DNA from: a virus
Lineage: Duplodnaviria; Heunggongvirae; Uroviricota; Caudoviricetes
Virus record (IMG/VR): IMGVR_UViG_2541047814_000003
Span: 1-11,196 of that record
Length of the DNA stretch: 11,196 nt
Reading direction: 5' to 3' (one strand)
The translations under genes were made by a program, and so were the position numbers. The notes below the pieces were generated by a model that worked only from the letters and a program-made list of their open reading frames with translations, was not told the origin of the DNA and made no database searches. This document shows positions 1-11,196 of the stretch, piece after piece. Numbering within the stretch: position 1 is the stretch's first letter; every line of letters starts with the position of its first letter.

Positions 1-299
1 TGTCAGTTATCATCTTCGGTTACGGTTATCGGCAGAACGCCCTGCCGCTGACAAGAGCTTATTTGCCTGACCAATTTACTCCACATGATAGATAACTATC
101 ATTTATAACATCTCATTGATTAGTCTTTATTTTTCATTGTGTTACAAATAACAGCTCTGTCAAAAACAGCGAAATTAACTACACCATTAACTACACCGTT
201 TCACGAACAATATCGAACAACCACGAACAAAGATCAACACGCTTTAACCGTTATCATTTTCCGGCTATCCGTTATGAAGCTGGTGGATGTTCCCCGATA

Positions 300-580
300 T
301 GGGGATCCCCACCTACCGGAATTTTTGCCAGGTTAAATGTTAACCGCTGCCCTGTTAACATTTTTACCAAAAAGGTAGTTAACATTTTTTGCACGCAACC
401 AGATGAATCATAAAGAAAAAATCAACAACAACGCTTCATCAGGCAGTTAACATGTTAACTACTATGAAACGGTAATTTTTTCTCTGCGTGAGAGGGGGCG
501 CGGTGTCAAGCTTGTTCGTTGTTCGTGGCTAACCACTCCCCCCCATACCGGAATTTTTTTCCGGTTAACAGTTAATCAGG
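300..580. repeat. Non-coding region with multiple GTTAAC-containing palindromes and a duplicated TACCGGAATTTTT..GGTTAA motif
   Basis: GTTAAC at about 336-350, 353-358, 379-384, 447-452, 455-460, 565-570; perfect 14-bp palindrome GTTAACATGTTAAC (447-460); TACCGGAATTTTTGCCAGGTTAA (about 314-336) and TACCGGAATTTTTTTCCGGTTAA (about 547-569). Confidence 0.6.
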
Positions 581-834
581 CTGGTGGGCTTTACCTGTTC
601 GGTAGGTGTTATGATTATCGTAATACCTTTCCCCCAATGGGGTAAAAGCATCAACCGTAACGAAAGTCGTTATGGTTGCCACTGATACCCCAAATTTGGG
701 TATCACGAGTAAGCCCCAAAATCTGGGTGTTACTCTTACTACCCAAACTACGGGTAGTTTCCGTAGTTTCATGGTCGAGTTGCAGATCTGCAACTCCCCC
801 ATTAACCACAGGCGAATTTCCGCCTTCGGTCATT

Positions 835-1330
835 CCTTAATCATCTGCGTAATCATAATGATTATTCAGCAAGCGCAATTTTGCGCTTTGCTTAAAGTTC
901 AGCGAGTTACCGCGCCGACTTCCTCAAATTGAGGTTTCCGAAAATATCAGCGGGTTAGCGATTAAGCTGACGAGTAATTAAACTGCGAAAATTTCGTAGT
1001 TTGTGAATATATTCCGGTCTGCTGGTTAACAGTCCTCAGATGTGAGTGATGTATCCGGCGCAATTTTGCGCTTTGCTTTAATCTCAGTAAGTTACCGCGC
1101 CAATTTCCACAGTCAGTGGAAATTTGGAAGAATCAACGGTTTAGGCCTTAATCATCTGCGTAATCATAATGATTATTCAGCCAGCGCAATTTTGCGTTAT
1201 CTGGAATATCAGCAAGTTACCGCGCCGGATTCAGCTAATGGCTGTTTCCGAAAGAATCAACGGGTTAGGCTGGTTTCCCCCGATGTTCGCCGCTGGCGAA
1301 TTTCGAAAATATCAACCAGTTACCGCCGTA
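835..1330. repeat. Non-coding tandem direct repeats (about 125-185 bp units) with conserved sub-blocks
   Basis: 36-bp block CCTTAATCATCTGCGTAATCATAATGATTATTCAGC identical at 835-870 and 1146-1181; GCGCAATTTTGCG at 873, 1058, 1184; AGTTACCGCGCC at 905, 1090, 1215 (variant 1318); TTTCCGAAA..ATCA.CGGGTTAGG at about 936, 1127, 1245. Confidence 0.75.
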
Positions 1331-1601
1331 ACCGCTCCGGCTTCTTCCAGTGGTACGTTATTTTTTCTTTCTCCCGATACATCTCAACGCGGCGATTGTA
1401 GGCCAGCATTTCAAGAACGCGGATCCGTATGTCGCGCATATCCACATCATTAAGCTGGATACCATCACGGCGCATCACCTCAGCAACCACACGCGCATAG
1501 TTTTCGGCTGTCACGCTGTCCGGCTGCGTGGTCTGTTCGTCAGCCTGCTGGCTGATTCCAGAGACGCGGCGGATTAATCGCAGTATTTCGGATTCAGTCA
1601 T
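1320..1601 (-). CDS. Hypothetical protein (93 aa) in the position lambda gives to large terminase
   Basis: ATG 1601, 11 nt after the TerS stop, weak SD; no recognisable family; 3' end runs into the tandem-repeat region. Confidence 0.4.
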   Translation of the reverse strand: MTESEILRLIRRVSGISQQADEQTTQPDSVTAENYARVVAEVMRRDGIQLNDVDMRDIRIRVLEMLAYNRRVEMYREKEKITYHWKKPERLRR

Positions 1602-1612
1602 AGCGTACTACG

Positions 1613-2155
1613 TTACTTATCTTTATTCTGCTGCAACTTTTCCGGTACGTTTCCGGTTGTTTCTTTCAAGTAATCAGCCAGTATCTGTGGGAGGTTGTCG
1701 GCAACTCTGGCACTGGCATTACAGGCTTTAACCACTTCCCTTTTAAGCCCATCCAGCATGGCTGGGGTAATGTGTGGAAAGCTCCTTTGCATAGTAAGCG
1801 GGATGCTGTCCATGATTGAAGAAATCTGGCTCGCCAGCTTTGAAAGCGCGTACAGGCAAAACCCTGTATCAATAACGTCGCCTCGTTCGCGCTCGTTTTT
1901 AAGCTCCTGCGCCTCCGCCTGCGCTGTCAGTAATCTGATCCTGACTCGTAATAGTTCATCATCGTCAATATCGCCTTTGTCGTTTGTAAGCTGGCTAATT
2001 GCATTGTTAACCCTATTGTCTATCACGCTGGCAACATCATAAAACGCCTCACGGCCTTTACGCTCAACGGGAGTTACTCCCCACTTGTCGAACGCTGTCG
2101 CACTTACACGGCAGCTTTTAGCCATGTTTTTTTTGTTCATCAGGTGCGATTTCAT
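1613..2155 (-). CDS. Terminase small subunit, lambda Nu1-like
   Basis: By-eye alignment to recalled lambda Nu1: LTAQAEAQELKNERERGDVIDTGFCLYALSKLASQISSIMDSIPLTMQRSFP vs LTRAQADAQELKNARDSAEVVETAFCTFVLSRIAGEIASILDGLPLSVQRRFP, EAFYDVASVI vs EVLYDSAAVI, C-terminal LPQILADYLKETTG vs LIPGLLSEYIEQSG. Three candidate ATG starts (2155, 2140, 2125), none with a clear SD. Confidence 0.88.
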   Translation of the reverse strand: MKSHLMNKKNMAKSCRVSATAFDKWGVTPVERKGREAFYDVASVIDNRVNNAISQLTNDKGDIDDDELLRVRIRLLTAQAEAQELKNERERGDVIDTGFCLYALSKLASQISSIMDSIPLTMQRSFPHITPAMLDGLKREVVKACNASARVADNLPQILADYLKETTGNVPEKLQQNKDK

Positions 2156-9224: not shown

Positions 9225-9291
9225 TCACATTGCCCACCAGCCGCAAATGTGGCATTGTTGGTGATGCGTTCAAGTTTAGTGTGTATCCATT

Positions 9292-9319
9292 GGCGACCGC
9301 CCCCGGTCGCCTTTGTTAT
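9292..9319 (+). terminator. Putative rho-independent terminator ending the two plus-strand genes
   Basis: Stem GGCGACCG (9292-9299) / CGGTCGCC (9304-9311) with CCCC loop, followed by TTTGTTAT. Confidence 0.5.
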
Positions 9320-9338
9320 ATATGTCATATGCTCCCCT

Positions 9339-9548
9339 TTACGCTGCCTTACCTGAATTAATGCGATCCCGGCTTTTAACCCATTCCATAACCTCGGACA
9401 GCAGCCAACCTACAGAACGCCCACCAAGATTACGGCGAGACGGAAAGCTCCCTTTTTTCTCCAGTTCGTAGCGTGTAGTGCGACACACTCCAGTTAACTT
9501 ACGACATTCATCCTCACGGATTACGCGATCTTCATTTATTTCACGCAT
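9339..9548 (-). CDS. alpA: AlpA-family (CP4-57 AlpA / Vis-like) MerR-type HTH transcriptional regulator, excisionase-like
   Basis: 69-aa reading from internal ATG at 9548; segment RVIREDECRKLTGVCRTTRYELEKKGSFPSRRNLGGRSVGWLLSEVMEWVKSR matches the AlpA pattern (GGRSVxW...EV.EW). The track ORF starts at a GTG at 9635 whose SD-like AAGAG abuts the start, so the shorter form is preferred; start is uncertain. Confidence 0.82.
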   Translation of the reverse strand: MREINEDRVIREDECRKLTGVCRTTRYELEKKGSFPSRRNLGGRSVGWLLSEVMEWVKSRDRINSGKAA

Positions 9549-9957
9549 ACAAAAACCTACATAAAAATTACGTATATAAACTTTTCTCTTAGCTGTAGAT
9601 ATATGAGATCGGATATTACTTAGATTCTTTTTCACCTCTTAAATTAAAAACACAACCATGCTAAAGGCTTTGTTCGCTAAGGTTCGTAGAAGCTCGTTAG
9701 TGTTTAAAATCGTGTCACGAGTTTTTAAGCGACGCAACAAAAAATGTCGTTATTTGGCATGACACCTGAATTACCTCATTAAAAACAAATAGATAAACCA
9801 TCAGGTGTTGGAACAATCAAGAAACAGAGAATAAGAACTAAGAAGAAGACATTTCAAATTTTTTCAATACTTGACACATATAAATCGTCGATATTTGCCG
9901 ATATTCGACGATTTATTTTAGAGGGCCATTTTTCGCAAGAAAAACAGCCGTAATTTG

Positions 9958-11196
9958 TCAAGAATTTTGGGAGTAAATTCGCGGGGTAATAACAACGATT
10001 TTTTCATCATTGTTCTGGAGAAGCTCGAGACGCTCAACCCATAGATTAAGAGCGTCACGTTTTGCATCGAGATAACGGGAGTGATTATAGACTCGTTGCA
10101 TTCCTGGCAACTGGTGCGCGGTTAGCTGCTCCACTACATGAGGATCCACGCCTAAATCGTTCAGCATCGTTGTAAACGTGTGCCGGATGTCGTGCAACGT
10201 CCAGGGGGCTTGATTAATGCGTCTGTGTGCCGTTCTTCCGTACTCTGATACAGATGATTGCCCTTTCAGTTCTCCGAGTAATAAGCCCGTGTGTCGGTTC
10301 TGCTCCACCAGCTTCGTTACGAACGGCAAGATCGCTTCCGGTATTGGCCTGAATATTGCTACCTTCGTTTTGCTGTGTTCTTTCGGCACAGTCCAGAGCA
10401 TTTCTTTAAAATCCCATTCCTGGACCTCAGAGCGTCTTAGCTCAGTGGTACGGCATCCGAAGACAATCAGGAGGCGAATCAGGGCGCTGTAGTACGGTGT
10501 GTAAATTTTTTCATCCAGGGCGCGTAGTAATTCCCCAAGCTCCTTGTTTGTTAGTACGCGCTCGCTTATTTCTGCTTTTTTCCCAACATCACCTACAACC
10601 ATATCATCTAGAACGTTGGTAATTGCGTAGCGTCGTTTGCGGCAGTACTTAAGCGCCTGCTTGCATACCTGTAACAAAAATCCTGCTGATACCGGATTAC
10701 GCATAGCAAGCTGATCAAAACAGGTCAGCCAGTGGCGTAGCTCGCATTTTTCCAGCGGCATAGCACCAATATGGCTGATTATGTGTGTATTGATCCGGCT
10801 TTTCAGAGATTCGTAATCTGTGCGCTTTTCCTTCGCGTACGATTCAAGCCAGTAAGTGAGCGCTTCCTTAACCGTAACAGGTGATAACGCTTCCTGTACG
10901 GTGTGATTAAGCTCATGGCGTGGATTTTTACCCTCAGCAAGCCAGGCGCGACACTGCGACGCTTTTTCCCTGGCTGCTTTCAGGCTCAAATCTGGATAAT
11001 TTCCCAGCCTCAGACGTTCAGGGGCTACCTTCCTGCCTGTTCCGGCCCTGTAAGTGAAATACCAGGTTAACAGGCCATTGGTTGAATGCCTTACGCTAAG
11101 GTTGCCACCATCATTAAAAAAGGTGTTTTTTGTGGTTGGTGATCCGCTTAATTTTCGTAAAAGAGTGTCGCTAAGTCTATGAATTGCCCTGCTCAT
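9958..11196 (-). CDS. int: Tyrosine site-specific integrase (P4-type phage integrase)
   Basis: 412-aa ORF; N-terminal arm-binding-like segment (FFNDGGNLSV...WYFTYR...LGNYPDLSLKAAR), C-terminal catalytic motifs HDIRHTF (HxxR) and RVYNHSRY (catalytic Tyr). Start codon sits at the window edge, so the true N-terminus cannot be fully verified. Confidence 0.92.
   Translation of the reverse strand: MSRAIHRLSDTLLRKLSGSPTTKNTFFNDGGNLSVRHSTNGLLTWYFTYRAGTGRKVAPERLRLGNYPDLSLKAAREKASQCRAWLAEGKNPRHELNHTVQEALSPVTVKEALTYWLESYAKEKRTDYESLKSRINTHIISHIGAMPLEKCELRHWLTCFDQLAMRNPVSAGFLLQVCKQALKYCRKRRYAITNVLDDMVVGDVGKKAEISERVLTNKELGELLRALDEKIYTPYYSALIRLLIVFGCRTTELRRSEVQEWDFKEMLWTVPKEHSKTKVAIFRPIPEAILPFVTKLVEQNRHTGLLLGELKGQSSVSEYGRTAHRRINQAPWTLHDIRHTFTTMLNDLGVDPHVVEQLTAHQLPGMQRVYNHSRYLDAKRDALNLWVERLELLQNNDEKIVVITPRIYSQNS

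What the first reader, a model, noticed from the sequence alone, without database searches (positions are those of the whole stretch)
1..11196. Hybrid satellite: P4-type integration/replication backbone fused to a lambda-type cos, TerS and capsid-gene subset
One element carries int, alpA, a P4 alpha-like primase with TGTTCACC iterons, an exact lambda cosN, a Nu1-like TerS and gpE/gpD homologs, yet no portal, protease, large terminase or tail genes appear in 11 kb. It has more virion genes than classical P4-like or rpp-type PICIs and fewer than capsid-forming PICIs (as recalled), suggesting a distinct helper-exploitation strategy aimed at cos-type lambdoid phages. I cannot tell from sequence whether this architecture is already catalogued.
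Basis: partly seen in the sequence, partly recalled or inferred. Interest (0 to 1): 0.8.

Follow-up and report, generated by a model that had tools for sequence, protein, structure and literature searches.

The report
Known E. coli phage-inducible island (PICI)
This is an ordinary member of a well-catalogued family of E. coli phage satellites (PICIs) that ride lambda-like phages, and its gene layout, including the capsid genes, is nearly identical to satellites first described in 2018.

Summary
The interpretation as an uncatalogued "hybrid" is not supported. The window is one complete island of about 11.3 kb, inserted between clpS and yljB/cspD, with no phage genes in the flanks of a 96%-identical relative.

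It has the same site, gene order and capsid/terS module (94% nt identity) as EcCIIHE3034. Fillol-Salom et al. 2018 listed that island as a TerS-encoding E. coli PICI.

Its capsid and decoration proteins are 98.9% and 100% identical to c1499 and c1500 of EcCICFT073, the rpp-type prototype. So rpp-type PICIs do not carry fewer virion genes. The only difference is a swapped cassette after cosN: cosB plus a Nu1-like terS here, cosB plus rppA there.

SatelliteFinder defines PICI "Type A" by exactly this gene set. The packaging module occurs in 496 of 5,426 complete E. coli genomes.

Small additions from this work:
- The 137-aa ORF resembles the C-terminal tail of the helper's protease/scaffold protein.
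- TerS has an N15-like DNA-binding domain, paired with an N15-R3-like cosB motif.
- ssb carries a premature stop.

The role of the capsid genes remains unknown. Published deletions of the CFT073 copies gave no phenotype.

The parts
1..86 (.). Host chromosome: the region directly upstream of the clpS start codon. Not part of the island.
   Evidence: Matches the MG1655 empty site with one mismatch up to the att core. In L001, clpS ends exactly where the window begins.
87..102 (+). att core GATAGATAACTATCAT, the junction on the clpS side.
   Evidence: The sequence follows the MG1655 yljB-clpS intergenic region up to here and then diverges. The second copy, GATAAATAACTATCAT, lies 169-184 bp beyond the int start codon in relative L001.
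172..230 (+). Candidate arm-type integrase sites: AACTACACC twice and CACGAACAA twice.
   Evidence: Repeats mapped. A similar AAATTAACTACACCATTGACTACACC block lies at the other end of the island, beyond int, in L001. Their function is inferred.
104..1319 (.). Repeat-rich non-coding tail of the island, where other PICIs carry accessory genes.
   Evidence: Direct-repeat families of 31-60 nt with spacings of 48-311 nt. No Pfam hit for the short ORF tested at 139-336 and no Rfam family. In IHE3034 the equivalent region was used for marker insertion.
1320..1601 (-). Conserved 93-aa PICI protein of unknown function.
   Evidence: phrog_1561 E 1e-55. 89-90% identical to the gene at the same position in EcCIIHE3034 and EcCICFT073. 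dN/dS 0.25.
1613..2155 (-). Small terminase subunit, Nu1 family, full length (180 aa).
   Evidence: PF07471 9e-23 and phrog_57 2e-52. 95% identical to EcCIIHE3034 TerS. 47% identical to N15 gp1, with 30/55 identities in the DNA-binding domain and 9/28 in residues 141-168. dN/dS 0.13.
2159..2192 (-). Inverted repeat TACACCAAC-N16-GTTGGTGTA just upstream of the terS start codon.
   Evidence: Seen directly in the sequence. Identical in IHE3034 and L001. Its function (operator or RNA hairpin) is unknown.
2232..2253 (-). Candidate cosB: a single R3-like site, GGTGGTGGTGGTTTTGTTGTTT, at bp 48-69 from the cohesive end.
   Evidence: Shares the exact 9-mer TTGTTGTTT with N15 R3 (bp 48-60, GAGGTTGTTGTTT), shifted by 9 bp. 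Identical in IHE3034. A GGTGGTGGTGTTGTT version lies at the same place in the satellite L012, whose TerS is 59% identical. The position of N15 R3 is from Murialdo and Feiss 2022. Binding is inferred.
2289..2300 (-). cosN: the exact 12-nt lambda cohesive-end sequence.
   Evidence: The flanks align with lambda cos. The same 12-mer is present in the CFT073 helper prophage and in EcCICFT073 cos1.
2324..2330 (-). cosQ (GGGTCCT).
   Evidence: Lies within the conserved TTTACGGGTCCTT block of the alignment with the lambda right end.
2333..2354 (-). Intrinsic-terminator-like hairpin (GCCGGA-GAAA-TCCGGC followed by T6) between orf137 and cosQ.
   Evidence: Read directly from the sequence. Conserved in IHE3034 and L001. 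The automatic scan did not list it.
2361..2774 (-). 137-aa protein whose C-terminal half resembles the C-terminal tail of lambdoid S49 protease/scaffold proteins (gpC/Nu3 type).
   Evidence: phrog_53 'head maturation protease', profile positions 495-567 of 583, E 1.7e-10. 39% identical to residues 416-493 of 501 of the CFT073 icd-prophage protease, E 3e-11. 32% identical to Gifsy-1 gpC residues 411-480, E 2e-9. No match to lambda C or N15 gp6. dN/dS 0.27.
2787..3122 (-). Head decoration protein, gpD family.
   Evidence: PF02924 2.5e-17. 100% identical to EcCICFT073 c1500. dN/dS 0.10.
3134..4189 (-). Major capsid protein, gpE family, full length.
   Evidence: PF03864 2e-52. 98.9% identical to EcCICFT073 c1499. 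At most 47% identical to any phage in the collection. dN/dS 0.17.
4189..4395 (-). Conserved 68-aa protein whose gene ends at the capsid gene's start.
   Evidence: phrog_3255 8e-37. 98.5% identical to the EcCICFT073 protein at the same position.
4650..4898 (-). PerC-family transcriptional activator.
   Evidence: PF06069 2e-35. Start codon placed by alignment with the L001 annotation.
4912..5319 (-). Single-strand DNA-binding protein gene with an in-frame stop at codon 81 (5077-5079).
   Evidence: PF00436 5e-11 on the 80-aa ORF. The whole 136-aa L001 SSB aligns in one frame at 97% identity across the stop, with W81 replaced by a stop.
5316..5561 (-). Conserved 81-aa protein.
   Evidence: phrog_1231 5e-50. 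79% identical to the protein at the same position in the IHE3034 and CFT073 islands.
5614..5834 (.). Replication origin: nine TGTTCACC iterons in both orientations within a stretch of 33% G+C.
   Evidence: The same octamer is the annotated P4 ori type-1 repeat. An origin downstream of pri is the described PICI arrangement.
5849..7681 (-). Pri-Rep replication protein: D5_N, SF3 helicase and C-terminal origin-binding region. The annotated start in relatives corresponds to 7666.
   Evidence: Pfam; TIGR01613 'primase, P4 family' C-terminal domain, below its cut-off. 48% identical to P4 alpha residues 290-771. Only 47-48% identical to the Pri-Rep of IHE3034 and CFT073, so a different allele.
7663..7962 (-). 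DUF4222 protein.
   Evidence: PF13973 7e-17. A DUF4222 gene occupies the same position in all relatives examined.
7969..8289 (-). 106-aa protein of unknown function.
   Evidence: phrog_15327 1e-71.
8282..8485 (-). Icd-like cell-division-inhibitor ORF.
   Evidence: Aligned at about 94% nt identity with the CDS annotated this way in L001. It is the 3' end of a 348-aa open frame that is probably not itself a gene.
8667..8987 (+). YlcI/YnfO-family protein, the only gene on the plus strand.
   Evidence: NF041551 6e-20 and phrog_6522 1.5e-57. A YlcI/YnfO gene has the same position and opposite orientation in L001, IHE3034 and CFT073.
9339..9548 (-). AlpA regulator/excisionase.
   Evidence: PF05930 5e-16. 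43% identical to P4 ORF88/Vis. Start codon placed by the annotated homologue.
9958..11196 (-). Tyrosine integrase.
   Evidence: 92% identical to the EcCIIHE3034 integrase, which uses the same site. Only 23% identical to P4 Int.

Best explanation
The window is one complete Gram-negative phage-inducible chromosomal island (PICI) of about 11.3 kb. It belongs to the TerS-encoding E. coli type exemplified by EcCIIHE3034, and it is inserted at a 16-bp att core between clpS and yljB/cspD.

Likely life cycle, carried over from the experimentally studied relative EcCICFT073:
1. A lambdoid helper phage triggers AlpA. AlpA then drives rightward transcription and, together with Int, excision.
2. The P4-alpha-like helicase/origin-binding protein binds the TGTTCACC iterons just downstream of its own gene and replicates the island as concatemers.
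3. The island's Nu1-family TerS has an N15-like winged-helix domain. It binds the island's own cosB, a single R3-like GGTGGTGG...TTGTTGTTT site. The helper's large terminase then nicks the lambda-type cosN and uses cosQ.
4. Packaging goes into helper-built heads and tails, most likely as roughly four-unit concatemers (4 x 11.28 = 45 kb, 93% of the 48.5-kb lambda genome).

Compared with EcCICFT073, the only architectural difference is a cassette swap immediately after cosN: cosB plus terS here, cosB plus rppA plus a second cos there.

The capsid protein, the decoration protein and the scaffold-tail-like 137-aa protein are conserved PICI genes under purifying selection. Their role is not established.

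What is shown: identity, boundaries, homologies and family membership. What is inferred: the TerS-cosB-TerL steps, the concatemer size and the identity of the helper.
For: Boundaries and site:
- The flanks are chromosomal, and the empty site in MG1655 defines the att core.
- The site and gene order match EcCIIHE3034. Window 1612-4597 is 93.9% nt identical to it. Protein identities: Int 92%, capsid 95%, decoration 99%, TerS 95%.

Relation to EcCICFT073:
- Window 2259-5526 is 97.3% identical. Capsid is 98.9% and decoration 100% identical.
- Homology stops just after cosN (at window 2259) and resumes at the 93-aa gene.

Literature:
- The IHE3034 and 18098 islands encode TerS. EcCICFT073 is induced through AlpA, needs int and pri, has its ori near pri, is cos-packaged by lambda and phi80, and its packaged DNA is phage-sized.
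- SatelliteFinder's five PICI core components are all present.
- The four-zone PICI/HES layout has been described.

Mechanistic pieces:
- Iterons.
- cos alignment.
- N15-like DNA-binding domain and R3-like motif, conserved in a relative whose TerS is 59% identical.

Signs that the genes are functional:
- dN/dS of 0.10-0.27 across the late module.
- The module is at least 80% covered in 496 of 5,426 complete E. coli genomes.
Against: - No transfer experiment exists for this element. In 2018 the EcCIIHE3034 island transferred only at or near the detection limit after induction of its resident prophages (40 transductants/ml in one recipient, below 1 in the others). A competent helper for the TerS type is therefore unidentified.
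- The last 28-40 residues of TerS, the TerL-binding region in lambda Nu1, are only about 20-30% identical to lambda, N15, 21-type or Gifsy-1 TerS. Direct recruitment of a lambda-type TerL is unproven.
- ssb carries a premature stop, so this particular copy may be slightly decayed.
- The right-hand att copy was seen only in a relative, because the window ends at the int start codon.
Confidence: 0.9

Rival explanations
1. A new intermediate class between classical PICIs and capsid-forming PICIs. The island's own scaffold-like protein, capsid protein and decoration protein would build satellite-specific (possibly small) shells on helper portal, protease and connector proteins.
For: - Three shell-related genes are adjacent and under purifying selection (dN/dS 0.10-0.27).
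- They are at most 47% identical to any phage capsid in the collection, which points to long residence in satellites rather than recent capture.
- The C-terminal half of the 137-aa protein resembles the C-terminal tail of the helper's protease/scaffold protein. This recalls how SaPI CpmB competes with the phage scaffold (from my own knowledge of Dearborn et al. 2017).
- PmCI172, which also encodes a capsid homologue, makes small capsids.
Against: - The layout is not new; it is the majority layout of E. coli PICIs.
- In EcCICFT073, deleting the 99-100% identical capsid or decoration gene changed neither transfer nor interference. A tetA insertion in c1501 still allowed transfer. All DNA packaged with lambda was phage-sized.
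- There is no portal, protease or connector gene here, so this is not a self-sufficient head module.
Confidence: 0.2
2. A P4-family satellite (or a P4/lambda recombinant) that uses P4-type biology.
For: - AlpA is 43% identical to P4 ORF88/Vis.
- The replication protein is 48% identical to P4 alpha over 484 residues.
- The iteron is the P4 type-1 repeat TGTTCACC.
Against: - No sid, delta, psu or epsilon homologue.
- The integrase is only 23% identical to P4 Int.
- The cos site is lambda-type, not P2/P4-type.
- The P4 alpha primase domain is missing.
- Other members of the same island family carry different Pri-Rep alleles, such as DUF927 or AAA_25, with the same late module. The alpha-like gene is therefore an exchangeable allele, not a backbone.
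- The 2018 paper argues explicitly that PICIs and P4 are separate families.
Confidence: 0.03
3. A decayed remnant of a lambdoid prophage that retains only a few head genes.
For: - Homologues of Nu1, E and D and a lambda cos site are present.
- ssb carries a nonsense mutation.
Against: - The gene order is E-D-scaffold tail-cos-Nu1, not the lambda order Nu1-A-W-B-C-D-E.
- The proteins are only 34-47% identical to their phage counterparts.
- The ends are intact, with int, an att core and arm repeats.
- The module is under purifying selection and recurs in 496 genomes.
- Near-identical modules sit in an island shown to be mobilised at up to 10^6 transductants/ml.
Confidence: 0.03

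Closest known systems
EcCIIHE3034, a TerS-encoding E. coli PICI (Fillol-Salom et al., ISME J 2018)
   Same: Same integration site between yljB/cspD and clpS. Same gene order: int-alpA-YlcI-Icd-DUF4222-pri-ssb-68aa-capsid-decoration-137aa-cos-terS-93aa. 93.9% nt identity over the late module. Identical cosN and an identical R3-like cosB motif.
   Different: The Pri-Rep allele differs (47% aa identity), as do the DUF4222 protein (36%) and the region between alpA and pri. 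IHE3034 lacks perC and has a second, inverted cos copy after terS that the window lacks. The window's ssb is truncated.
EcCICFT073, the experimentally characterised Rpp-type E. coli PICI (Fillol-Salom 2018; Mol Cell 2019)
   Same: 97.3% nt identity from ssb through cosN. Capsid 98.9%, decoration 100%, the 68-aa protein 98.5%, the 137-aa protein 93% and the 93-aa protein 90% identical. Same overall layout, including PerC. Lambda-type cosQ and cosN.
   Different: It sits next to phoQ, with an integrase 76% identical. The cassette after cosN carries a different cosB, rppA (144 aa, with no detectable similarity to the window's TerS) and a second cos. EcCICFT073 therefore depends on the helper's TerS, whereas this island brings its own full-length Nu1 homologue.
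SatelliteFinder PICI Type A (Moura de Sousa et al., NAR 2023)
   Same: All five core components are present: integrase, AlpA, primase-replicase, capsid gene and small terminase. No forbidden components (tail, holin, TerL, head-tail adaptors). The size is close to the 9.5-kb median. 97% of Type A elements are in E. coli.
   Different: Nothing of substance. I did not run SatelliteFinder itself.
Satellite phage P4
   Same: AlpA/Vis homologue, the helicase and origin-binding part of alpha, and TGTTCACC iterons.
   Different: No sid, delta, psu or epsilon. No alpha primase domain. Lambda-type rather than P2-type cos. Carries capsid, decoration and terS genes that P4 lacks.
Capsid-forming PICIs (Alqurainy et al. 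2023) and helper-embedded satellites (Tommasini et al. 2022)
   Same: The left half (int-alpA-replication) is shared. There is a late zone with phage-derived head genes. Satellites whose TerS is 59% identical and that have the same E-D-Nu1 arrangement are embedded in prophage capsid genes.
   Different: No TerL, portal, protease or head-tail connector, so it is not capsid-forming. It is integrated in a chromosomal intergenic site rather than in a prophage late gene.

Membership tests
Gram-negative PICI (criteria of Fillol-Salom 2018) | Integrase with a specific chromosomal att site that prophages do not use | tested here: met
   A 16-bp att core lies in the yljB-clpS intergenic region, defined against the MG1655 empty site. 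The published PICI EcCIIHE3034 uses the same site. I did not check independently that prophages never use this site.
Gram-negative PICI (criteria of Fillol-Salom 2018) | Unidirectional organisation starting with int and alpA | tested here: met
   All assigned genes except the YlcI/YnfO gene are on the minus strand, in the order int, alpA, replication genes, late genes.
Gram-negative PICI (criteria of Fillol-Salom 2018) | Own replication protein with an adjacent iteron-containing origin | tested here: met
   An SF3 helicase/D5_N protein, with nine TGTTCACC iterons within the 290 bp downstream of it.
Gram-negative PICI (criteria of Fillol-Salom 2018) | Small size (about 10-20 kb) and no lysis, tail or complete head gene set | tested here: met
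   About 11.28 kb. No lambda A, W, B, C, FI or FII. Every ORF of 50 aa or more is accounted for. The flanks are chromosomal.
Gram-negative PICI (criteria of Fillol-Salom 2018) | A packaging-redirection device (terS or rpp) plus a helper-type cos or pac site | tested here: met
   A Nu1-family terS lies next to lambda-type cosQ and cosN and a private cosB.
Gram-negative PICI (criteria of Fillol-Salom 2018) | Induction, replication and high-frequency transfer that depend on a helper phage | not testable with these tools
   Known only by analogy with EcCICFT073. The most similar island, EcCIIHE3034, transferred only at or near the detection limit from its native strain.
SatelliteFinder PICI Type A | Co-localised int, AlpA/MerR/Stl regulator, primase-replicase, capsid component and small terminase, with no forbidden tail, holin or cfPICI components | tested here: met
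   Pfam hits for all five components. No forbidden components. Definition taken from the paper. The program itself was not run.
Rpp-type PICI | An Rpp protein (about 144-153 aa) that binds helper TerS | tested here: not met
   RppA of EcCICFT073 has no significant match in the six-frame translation of the window (best hit E 0.011, inside the pri gene). The TerS query found no PDB chain below E 0.067 and nothing named Rpp or TerS.
P4-like satellite (SatelliteFinder definition) | The psu-delta-sid capsid-size operon | tested here: not met
   tblastn with P4 Sid, Delta and Psu gives only chance hits with E > 0.4. No Pfam hits of that kind.
P4-like satellite (SatelliteFinder definition) | Epsilon/Ash helper derepressor | tested here: not met
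   P4 epsilon gives no hit at E <= 1. An 'ash family protein' is annotated in some relatives, but none was found in this window.
P4-like satellite (SatelliteFinder definition) | Alpha primase-helicase, AlpA and integrase | tested here: inconclusive
   The helicase and DNA-binding part is 48% identical and AlpA is 43% identical. The alpha primase domain is absent and Int is only 23% identical. PICIs share these components.
Capsid-forming PICI | Own TerL, portal, prohead protease and head-tail adaptor/connector | tested here: not met
   No hit for lambda A, B, C, W or FII, and no unassigned coding space. Only the roughly 80-residue tail of a protease/scaffold protein is represented, in the 137-aa ORF.
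Helper-embedded satellite (HES) | Integration inside a late gene of a lambdoid prophage | tested here: not met
   The island is integrated in a chromosomal intergenic region. By contrast, relatives L012-L014 split a Phage_cap_E gene.

The most novel reading that the evidence does not exclude
The conserved trio of scaffold-tail mimic (137 aa), capsid protein and decoration protein is not dispensable baggage. With the right natural helper, which is not lambda or phi80, it co-assembles with the helper's portal and protease into satellite-specific or chimeric shells, possibly smaller ones. At the same time, the island's own N15-like TerS recruits helper TerL directly, bypassing helper TerS. TerS-type E. 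coli PICIs would then be a functional intermediate between Rpp-type PICIs and capsid-forming PICIs.
Probability: 0.2. Interest if true: 0.6.

Novelty: already known. Interest (0 to 1): 0.15.

Why it matters
As a discovery it matters little. The architecture has been published since 2018, is the defining pattern of an automated satellite finder, and occurs in about 9% of complete E. coli genomes.

Its residual value is as a pointer to two open points in a known system:
- Why do most enterobacterial PICIs keep a capsid gene, a decoration gene and, as noted here, a scaffold-tail-like gene under purifying selection? Deletion of the CFT073 capsid and decoration genes gave no phenotype with the helpers tested.
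- How do TerS-type islands, with an N15-like DNA-binding domain, a single R3-like cosB and a diverged C-terminus, engage the helper's large terminase, compared with the Rpp-type mechanism already solved?

PICIs also matter in general as vehicles of virulence regulators. This one carries a PerC-family activator.

Tried and rejected
- A first guess at the EcCICFT073 coordinates returned the icd-integrated lambdoid prophage instead. This later proved useful, because it is the helper prophage named in the literature. The island itself was found next to phoQ.
- PDB sequence searches with TerS, the 137-aa ORF and the 93-aa ORF gave nothing significant. There was no match to RppC or to the lambda Nu1 N-terminal domain at this sensitivity.
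- Rfam found no family, so there is no P4 CI/C4/isrK-type immunity RNA at gathering threshold.
- The 137-aa ORF shows no similarity to lambda gpC/Nu3 or to N15 gp6, even though N15 gp6 is also 137 aa. The similarity is confined to 21/Gifsy-type protease-scaffold tails.
- The large homologue search for the 137-aa ORF returned only close E. coli relatives. Some carry the name 'phage head-tail connector protein', which I suspect is inherited from the 'preconnector' name of phage 21 gp5. It added no distant relatives.
- I tried to identify the helper from the C-terminal, TerL-binding part of TerS. All phage TerS proteins compared are equally distant there (2-9 of 28 identities), so no helper could be named.
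- NCBIfam added only the YlcI/YnfO hit and a sub-threshold P4-family primase C-terminal hit.
- The promoter/terminator scan found no more sites than shuffled sequence gives, and it missed the hairpin before cosQ.
- One paper reading failed on a term that was too short.
- The prophage-remnant, P4-family and cf-PICI readings were considered and rejected (see the rival explanations and the membership table).

Full report
**What is in the window**

Almost all coding capacity is on the minus strand. Reading that strand from 11196 downwards, the genes are:
- a tyrosine integrase and AlpA
- an Icd-like ORF, with a YlcI/YnfO gene on the opposite strand
- a 106-aa protein and a DUF4222 protein
- a D5_N/SF3-helicase replication protein
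- an 81-aa protein, SSB and PerC
- a 68-aa protein, a gpE-family capsid protein and a gpD-family decoration protein
- a 137-aa protein
- a cos site, a Nu1-family small terminase and a 93-aa protein
- about 1.2 kb of repeat-rich non-coding DNA

The assignments rest.

The octamer TGTTCACC occurs 10 times against 0.36 expected. Nine copies are packed into a stretch of 33% G+C just downstream of the replication gene. It is the annotated type-1 ori repeat of P4.

The lambda cohesive end GGGCGGCGACCT is exact at 2289-2300 on the minus strand. It is embedded in an 82-nt stretch that aligns with lambda cos, including cosQ.

**Boundaries**

A 96%-identical copy in E. coli 23CRST038 lies between clpS/clpA and yljB/cspD/macB. 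Comparison with the empty site in MG1655 gives these results:
- Window 1-86 is host DNA upstream of clpS.
- The junction is a 16-bp core, GATAGATAACTATCAT, at 87-102.
- In the relative, the second copy lies 169-184 bp past the int start codon. This gives an element of about 11.28 kb.
- Arm-type repeats flank both ends.

No tRNA gene is involved. No portal, protease, large terminase or tail gene lies inside the window or next to the element. This is a self-contained satellite, not a prophage fragment.

**It is already catalogued**

Fillol-Salom et al. (ISME J 2018) described E. coli PICIs and state that the islands in strains IHE3034 and 18098 encode TerS, while those in O42 and CFT073 do not.

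I retrieved the IHE3034 island. It occupies the same yljB|clpS site and has the same gene order. It is 93.9% nt identical to window 1612-4597. Protein identities are Int 92%, capsid 95%, decoration 99%, the 137-aa protein 93% and TerS 95%.

I then located EcCICFT073, the experimentally studied prototype, next to phoQ.
- Window 2259-5526 is 97.3% identical to it.
- The capsid protein is 98.9% identical to c1499, and the decoration protein is 100% identical to c1500.
- Homology stops just after cosN (at window 2259) and resumes at the 93-aa gene.

Between those two points the window has its own cosB and a 180-aa Nu1 homologue. CFT073 has a different cosB, the 144-aa RppA and a second, inverted cos. 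RppA has no detectable relative in the window.

So the statement that this element has more virion genes than rpp-type PICIs is incorrect. The two types differ only by a packaging-specificity cassette.

Other published descriptions agree:
- SatelliteFinder's PICI model uses exactly int, alpA, pri-rep, a capsid gene and terS, and 97% of elements with all five are in E. coli.
- Tommasini, Mageeney and Williams describe the Integration-Bro-Replication-Late layout. They note a capsid gene in 21 of 29 reference Gram-negative PICIs and say it is not required for transfer.

The late module (window 1320-4400) is at least 80% covered in 496 of 5,426 complete E. coli genomes.

**The P4 resemblance**

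The resemblance is real but partial.
- AlpA is 43% identical to P4 ORF88/Vis.
- The replication protein is 48% identical to P4 alpha residues 290-771, the helicase and origin-binding part, and it shares the iteron.
- Its first 117 residues do not match the P4 primase domain.
- The integrase is only 23% identical to P4 Int.
- No sid, delta, psu or epsilon is present.

Relatives with the same late module carry other replication alleles: a version only 47% identical in IHE3034 and CFT073, DUF927 in others, and AAA_25 in more distant satellites. The alpha-like gene is therefore one interchangeable allele, not a P4 backbone. The 2018 paper already discusses and rejects merging PICIs with P4.

**How it most likely works**

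By analogy with EcCICFT073:
1. A lambdoid helper activates AlpA, and the island excises.
2. The island replicates from its iteron origin.
3. It is packaged by a cos mechanism.

For the packaging step, the sequence allows a more specific inference. TerS is full length relative to lambda Nu1. Its closest phage relative is N15 gp1, at 47% overall and 30/55 identities in the winged-helix domain.

Murialdo and Feiss report that N15 cosB is a single R3 site at bp 48-60, with no IHF or R2/R1 sites. That site reads GAGGTTGTTGTTT. The window has GGTGGTGGTGGTTTTGTTGTTT at bp 48-69 from the cohesive end. This motif is identical in IHE3034. It is recognisable (GGTGGTGGTGTTGTT) in a satellite whose TerS is only 59% identical and whose surrounding cos sequence differs.

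I therefore infer three things:
- The island's TerS binds a private, single R3-like site.
- The helper's large terminase cuts the shared cosN and reads cosQ.
- This both directs packaging to the island and keeps it distinct from helper cosB.

The weak point is the C-terminal region that binds TerL in Nu1. It is only about 20-30% identical to every phage TerS compared, so the helper cannot be named. Hetero-oligomerisation with helper TerS cannot be excluded.

Four island units equal 45 kb, or 93% of the lambda genome length. This fits the published finding that Gram-negative PICIs are packaged as phage-sized concatemers.

**The capsid genes**

Capsid, decoration and TerS are at most 47% identical to anything in the phage collection. 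Between window and IHE3034 they evolve under purifying selection, with dN/dS of 0.10-0.27.

The unannotated 137-aa ORF is a small addition from this work. Its residues 49-131 match the extreme C-terminal tail of lambdoid S49 protease/scaffold proteins:
- phrog_53, E 1.7e-10
- 39% identity to the protease of the CFT073 icd prophage, E 3e-11
- 32% identity to Gifsy-1 gpC

The CFT073 icd prophage is integrated next to icd, the site Tommasini et al. give for the helper prophage of EcCICFT073.

The late zone thus contains a scaffold-tail mimic, a coat protein and a decoration protein. That invites a capsid-remodelling hypothesis. The published data argue against an essential role with the helpers tested:
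- Deleting c1499 or c1500 affected neither transfer nor interference.
- A tetA insertion in c1501 still transferred.
- DNA packaged with lambda was phage-sized.

I give the remodelling reading a probability of about 0.2.

**Verdict**

The interpretation as a satellite of cos lambdoid phages is supported. The claim of a distinct or uncatalogued hybrid is not. The element is a mosaic of published PICI modules:
- an IHE3034-type site and terS cassette
- a CFT073-type capsid block
- a P4-alpha-like replication allele

Novelty: already known. Interest: low.

Noticed in passing
window 4912-5319 (-), stop codon at 5077-5079: The ssb gene has an in-frame premature stop (W81 to stop). The remaining 55 codons are still 97% identical in frame to the intact 136-aa SSB of a relative. 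This is therefore a recent nonsense mutation in this copy.
   Followed up: yes
window 104-1319: About 1.2 kb with no convincing ORF and no Rfam hit, but with nested direct repeats of 31-60 nt (for example 835-885 and 1146-1196 at 98%). Segment 335-510, rich in GTTAACA palindromes, is about 80% identical to unannotated segments of Stx-converting and PPompW phages.
   Followed up: partly
window 5849-7681 (-), residues 1-117: The 'DNA primase family' protein lacks any match to the P4 alpha primase domain, and its N-terminal 117 residues hit no family. No separate primase gene is present, so the origin of priming activity is unclear.
   Followed up: partly
L012-L014 (JGI 3300011966 and Logan contigs), satellite at about 119-10916: Satellites whose TerS is 59% identical have the same int-alpA-DUF4222-replicase-capsid-decoration-Nu1 order, plus FRG and DUF3892 genes. 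They sit inside the major capsid gene of a lambdoid prophage, with a 91-aa Phage_cap_E fragment upstream and a 254-258-aa fragment followed by FI, FII and tail genes downstream. This matches the published 'helper-embedded satellites'. The gene in the position of the 137-aa ORF is a 127-aa protein with an AlpA hit and no similarity to the window's ORF.
   Followed up: partly
L006 14845-14910 and L011 26276-26340, compared with window 2267-2331: EcCIIHE3034 and EcCICFT073 both carry a second, inverted copy of cosQ-cosN (the published cos2) between terS/rppA and the 93-aa gene. The window has only one cosN, even allowing 2 mismatches.
   Followed up: yes
window 2159-2192 (-): A perfect 9-bp inverted repeat, TACACCAAC-N16-GTTGGTGTA, ends 4 nt before the terS start codon. 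It is conserved in IHE3034 and L001. It may be an operator or a translational hairpin.
   Followed up: no
window 8282-9328 (-): A 348-aa open frame with no family hit. It overlaps the YlcI/YnfO gene on the other strand and contains the 67-aa Icd-like ORF at its 3' end. It is probably not a real gene.
   Followed up: partly
window 1 and 11196: The window starts at the base after the clpS start codon and ends exactly on the int start codon. It seems to have been cut at annotated gene boundaries, which leaves the int-side att copy about 170-185 bp outside the window.
   Followed up: yes
window 4650-4898 (-): A PerC-family activator (PF06069, E 2e-35) is carried by the island. [quoted passage not shown]
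   Followed up: no
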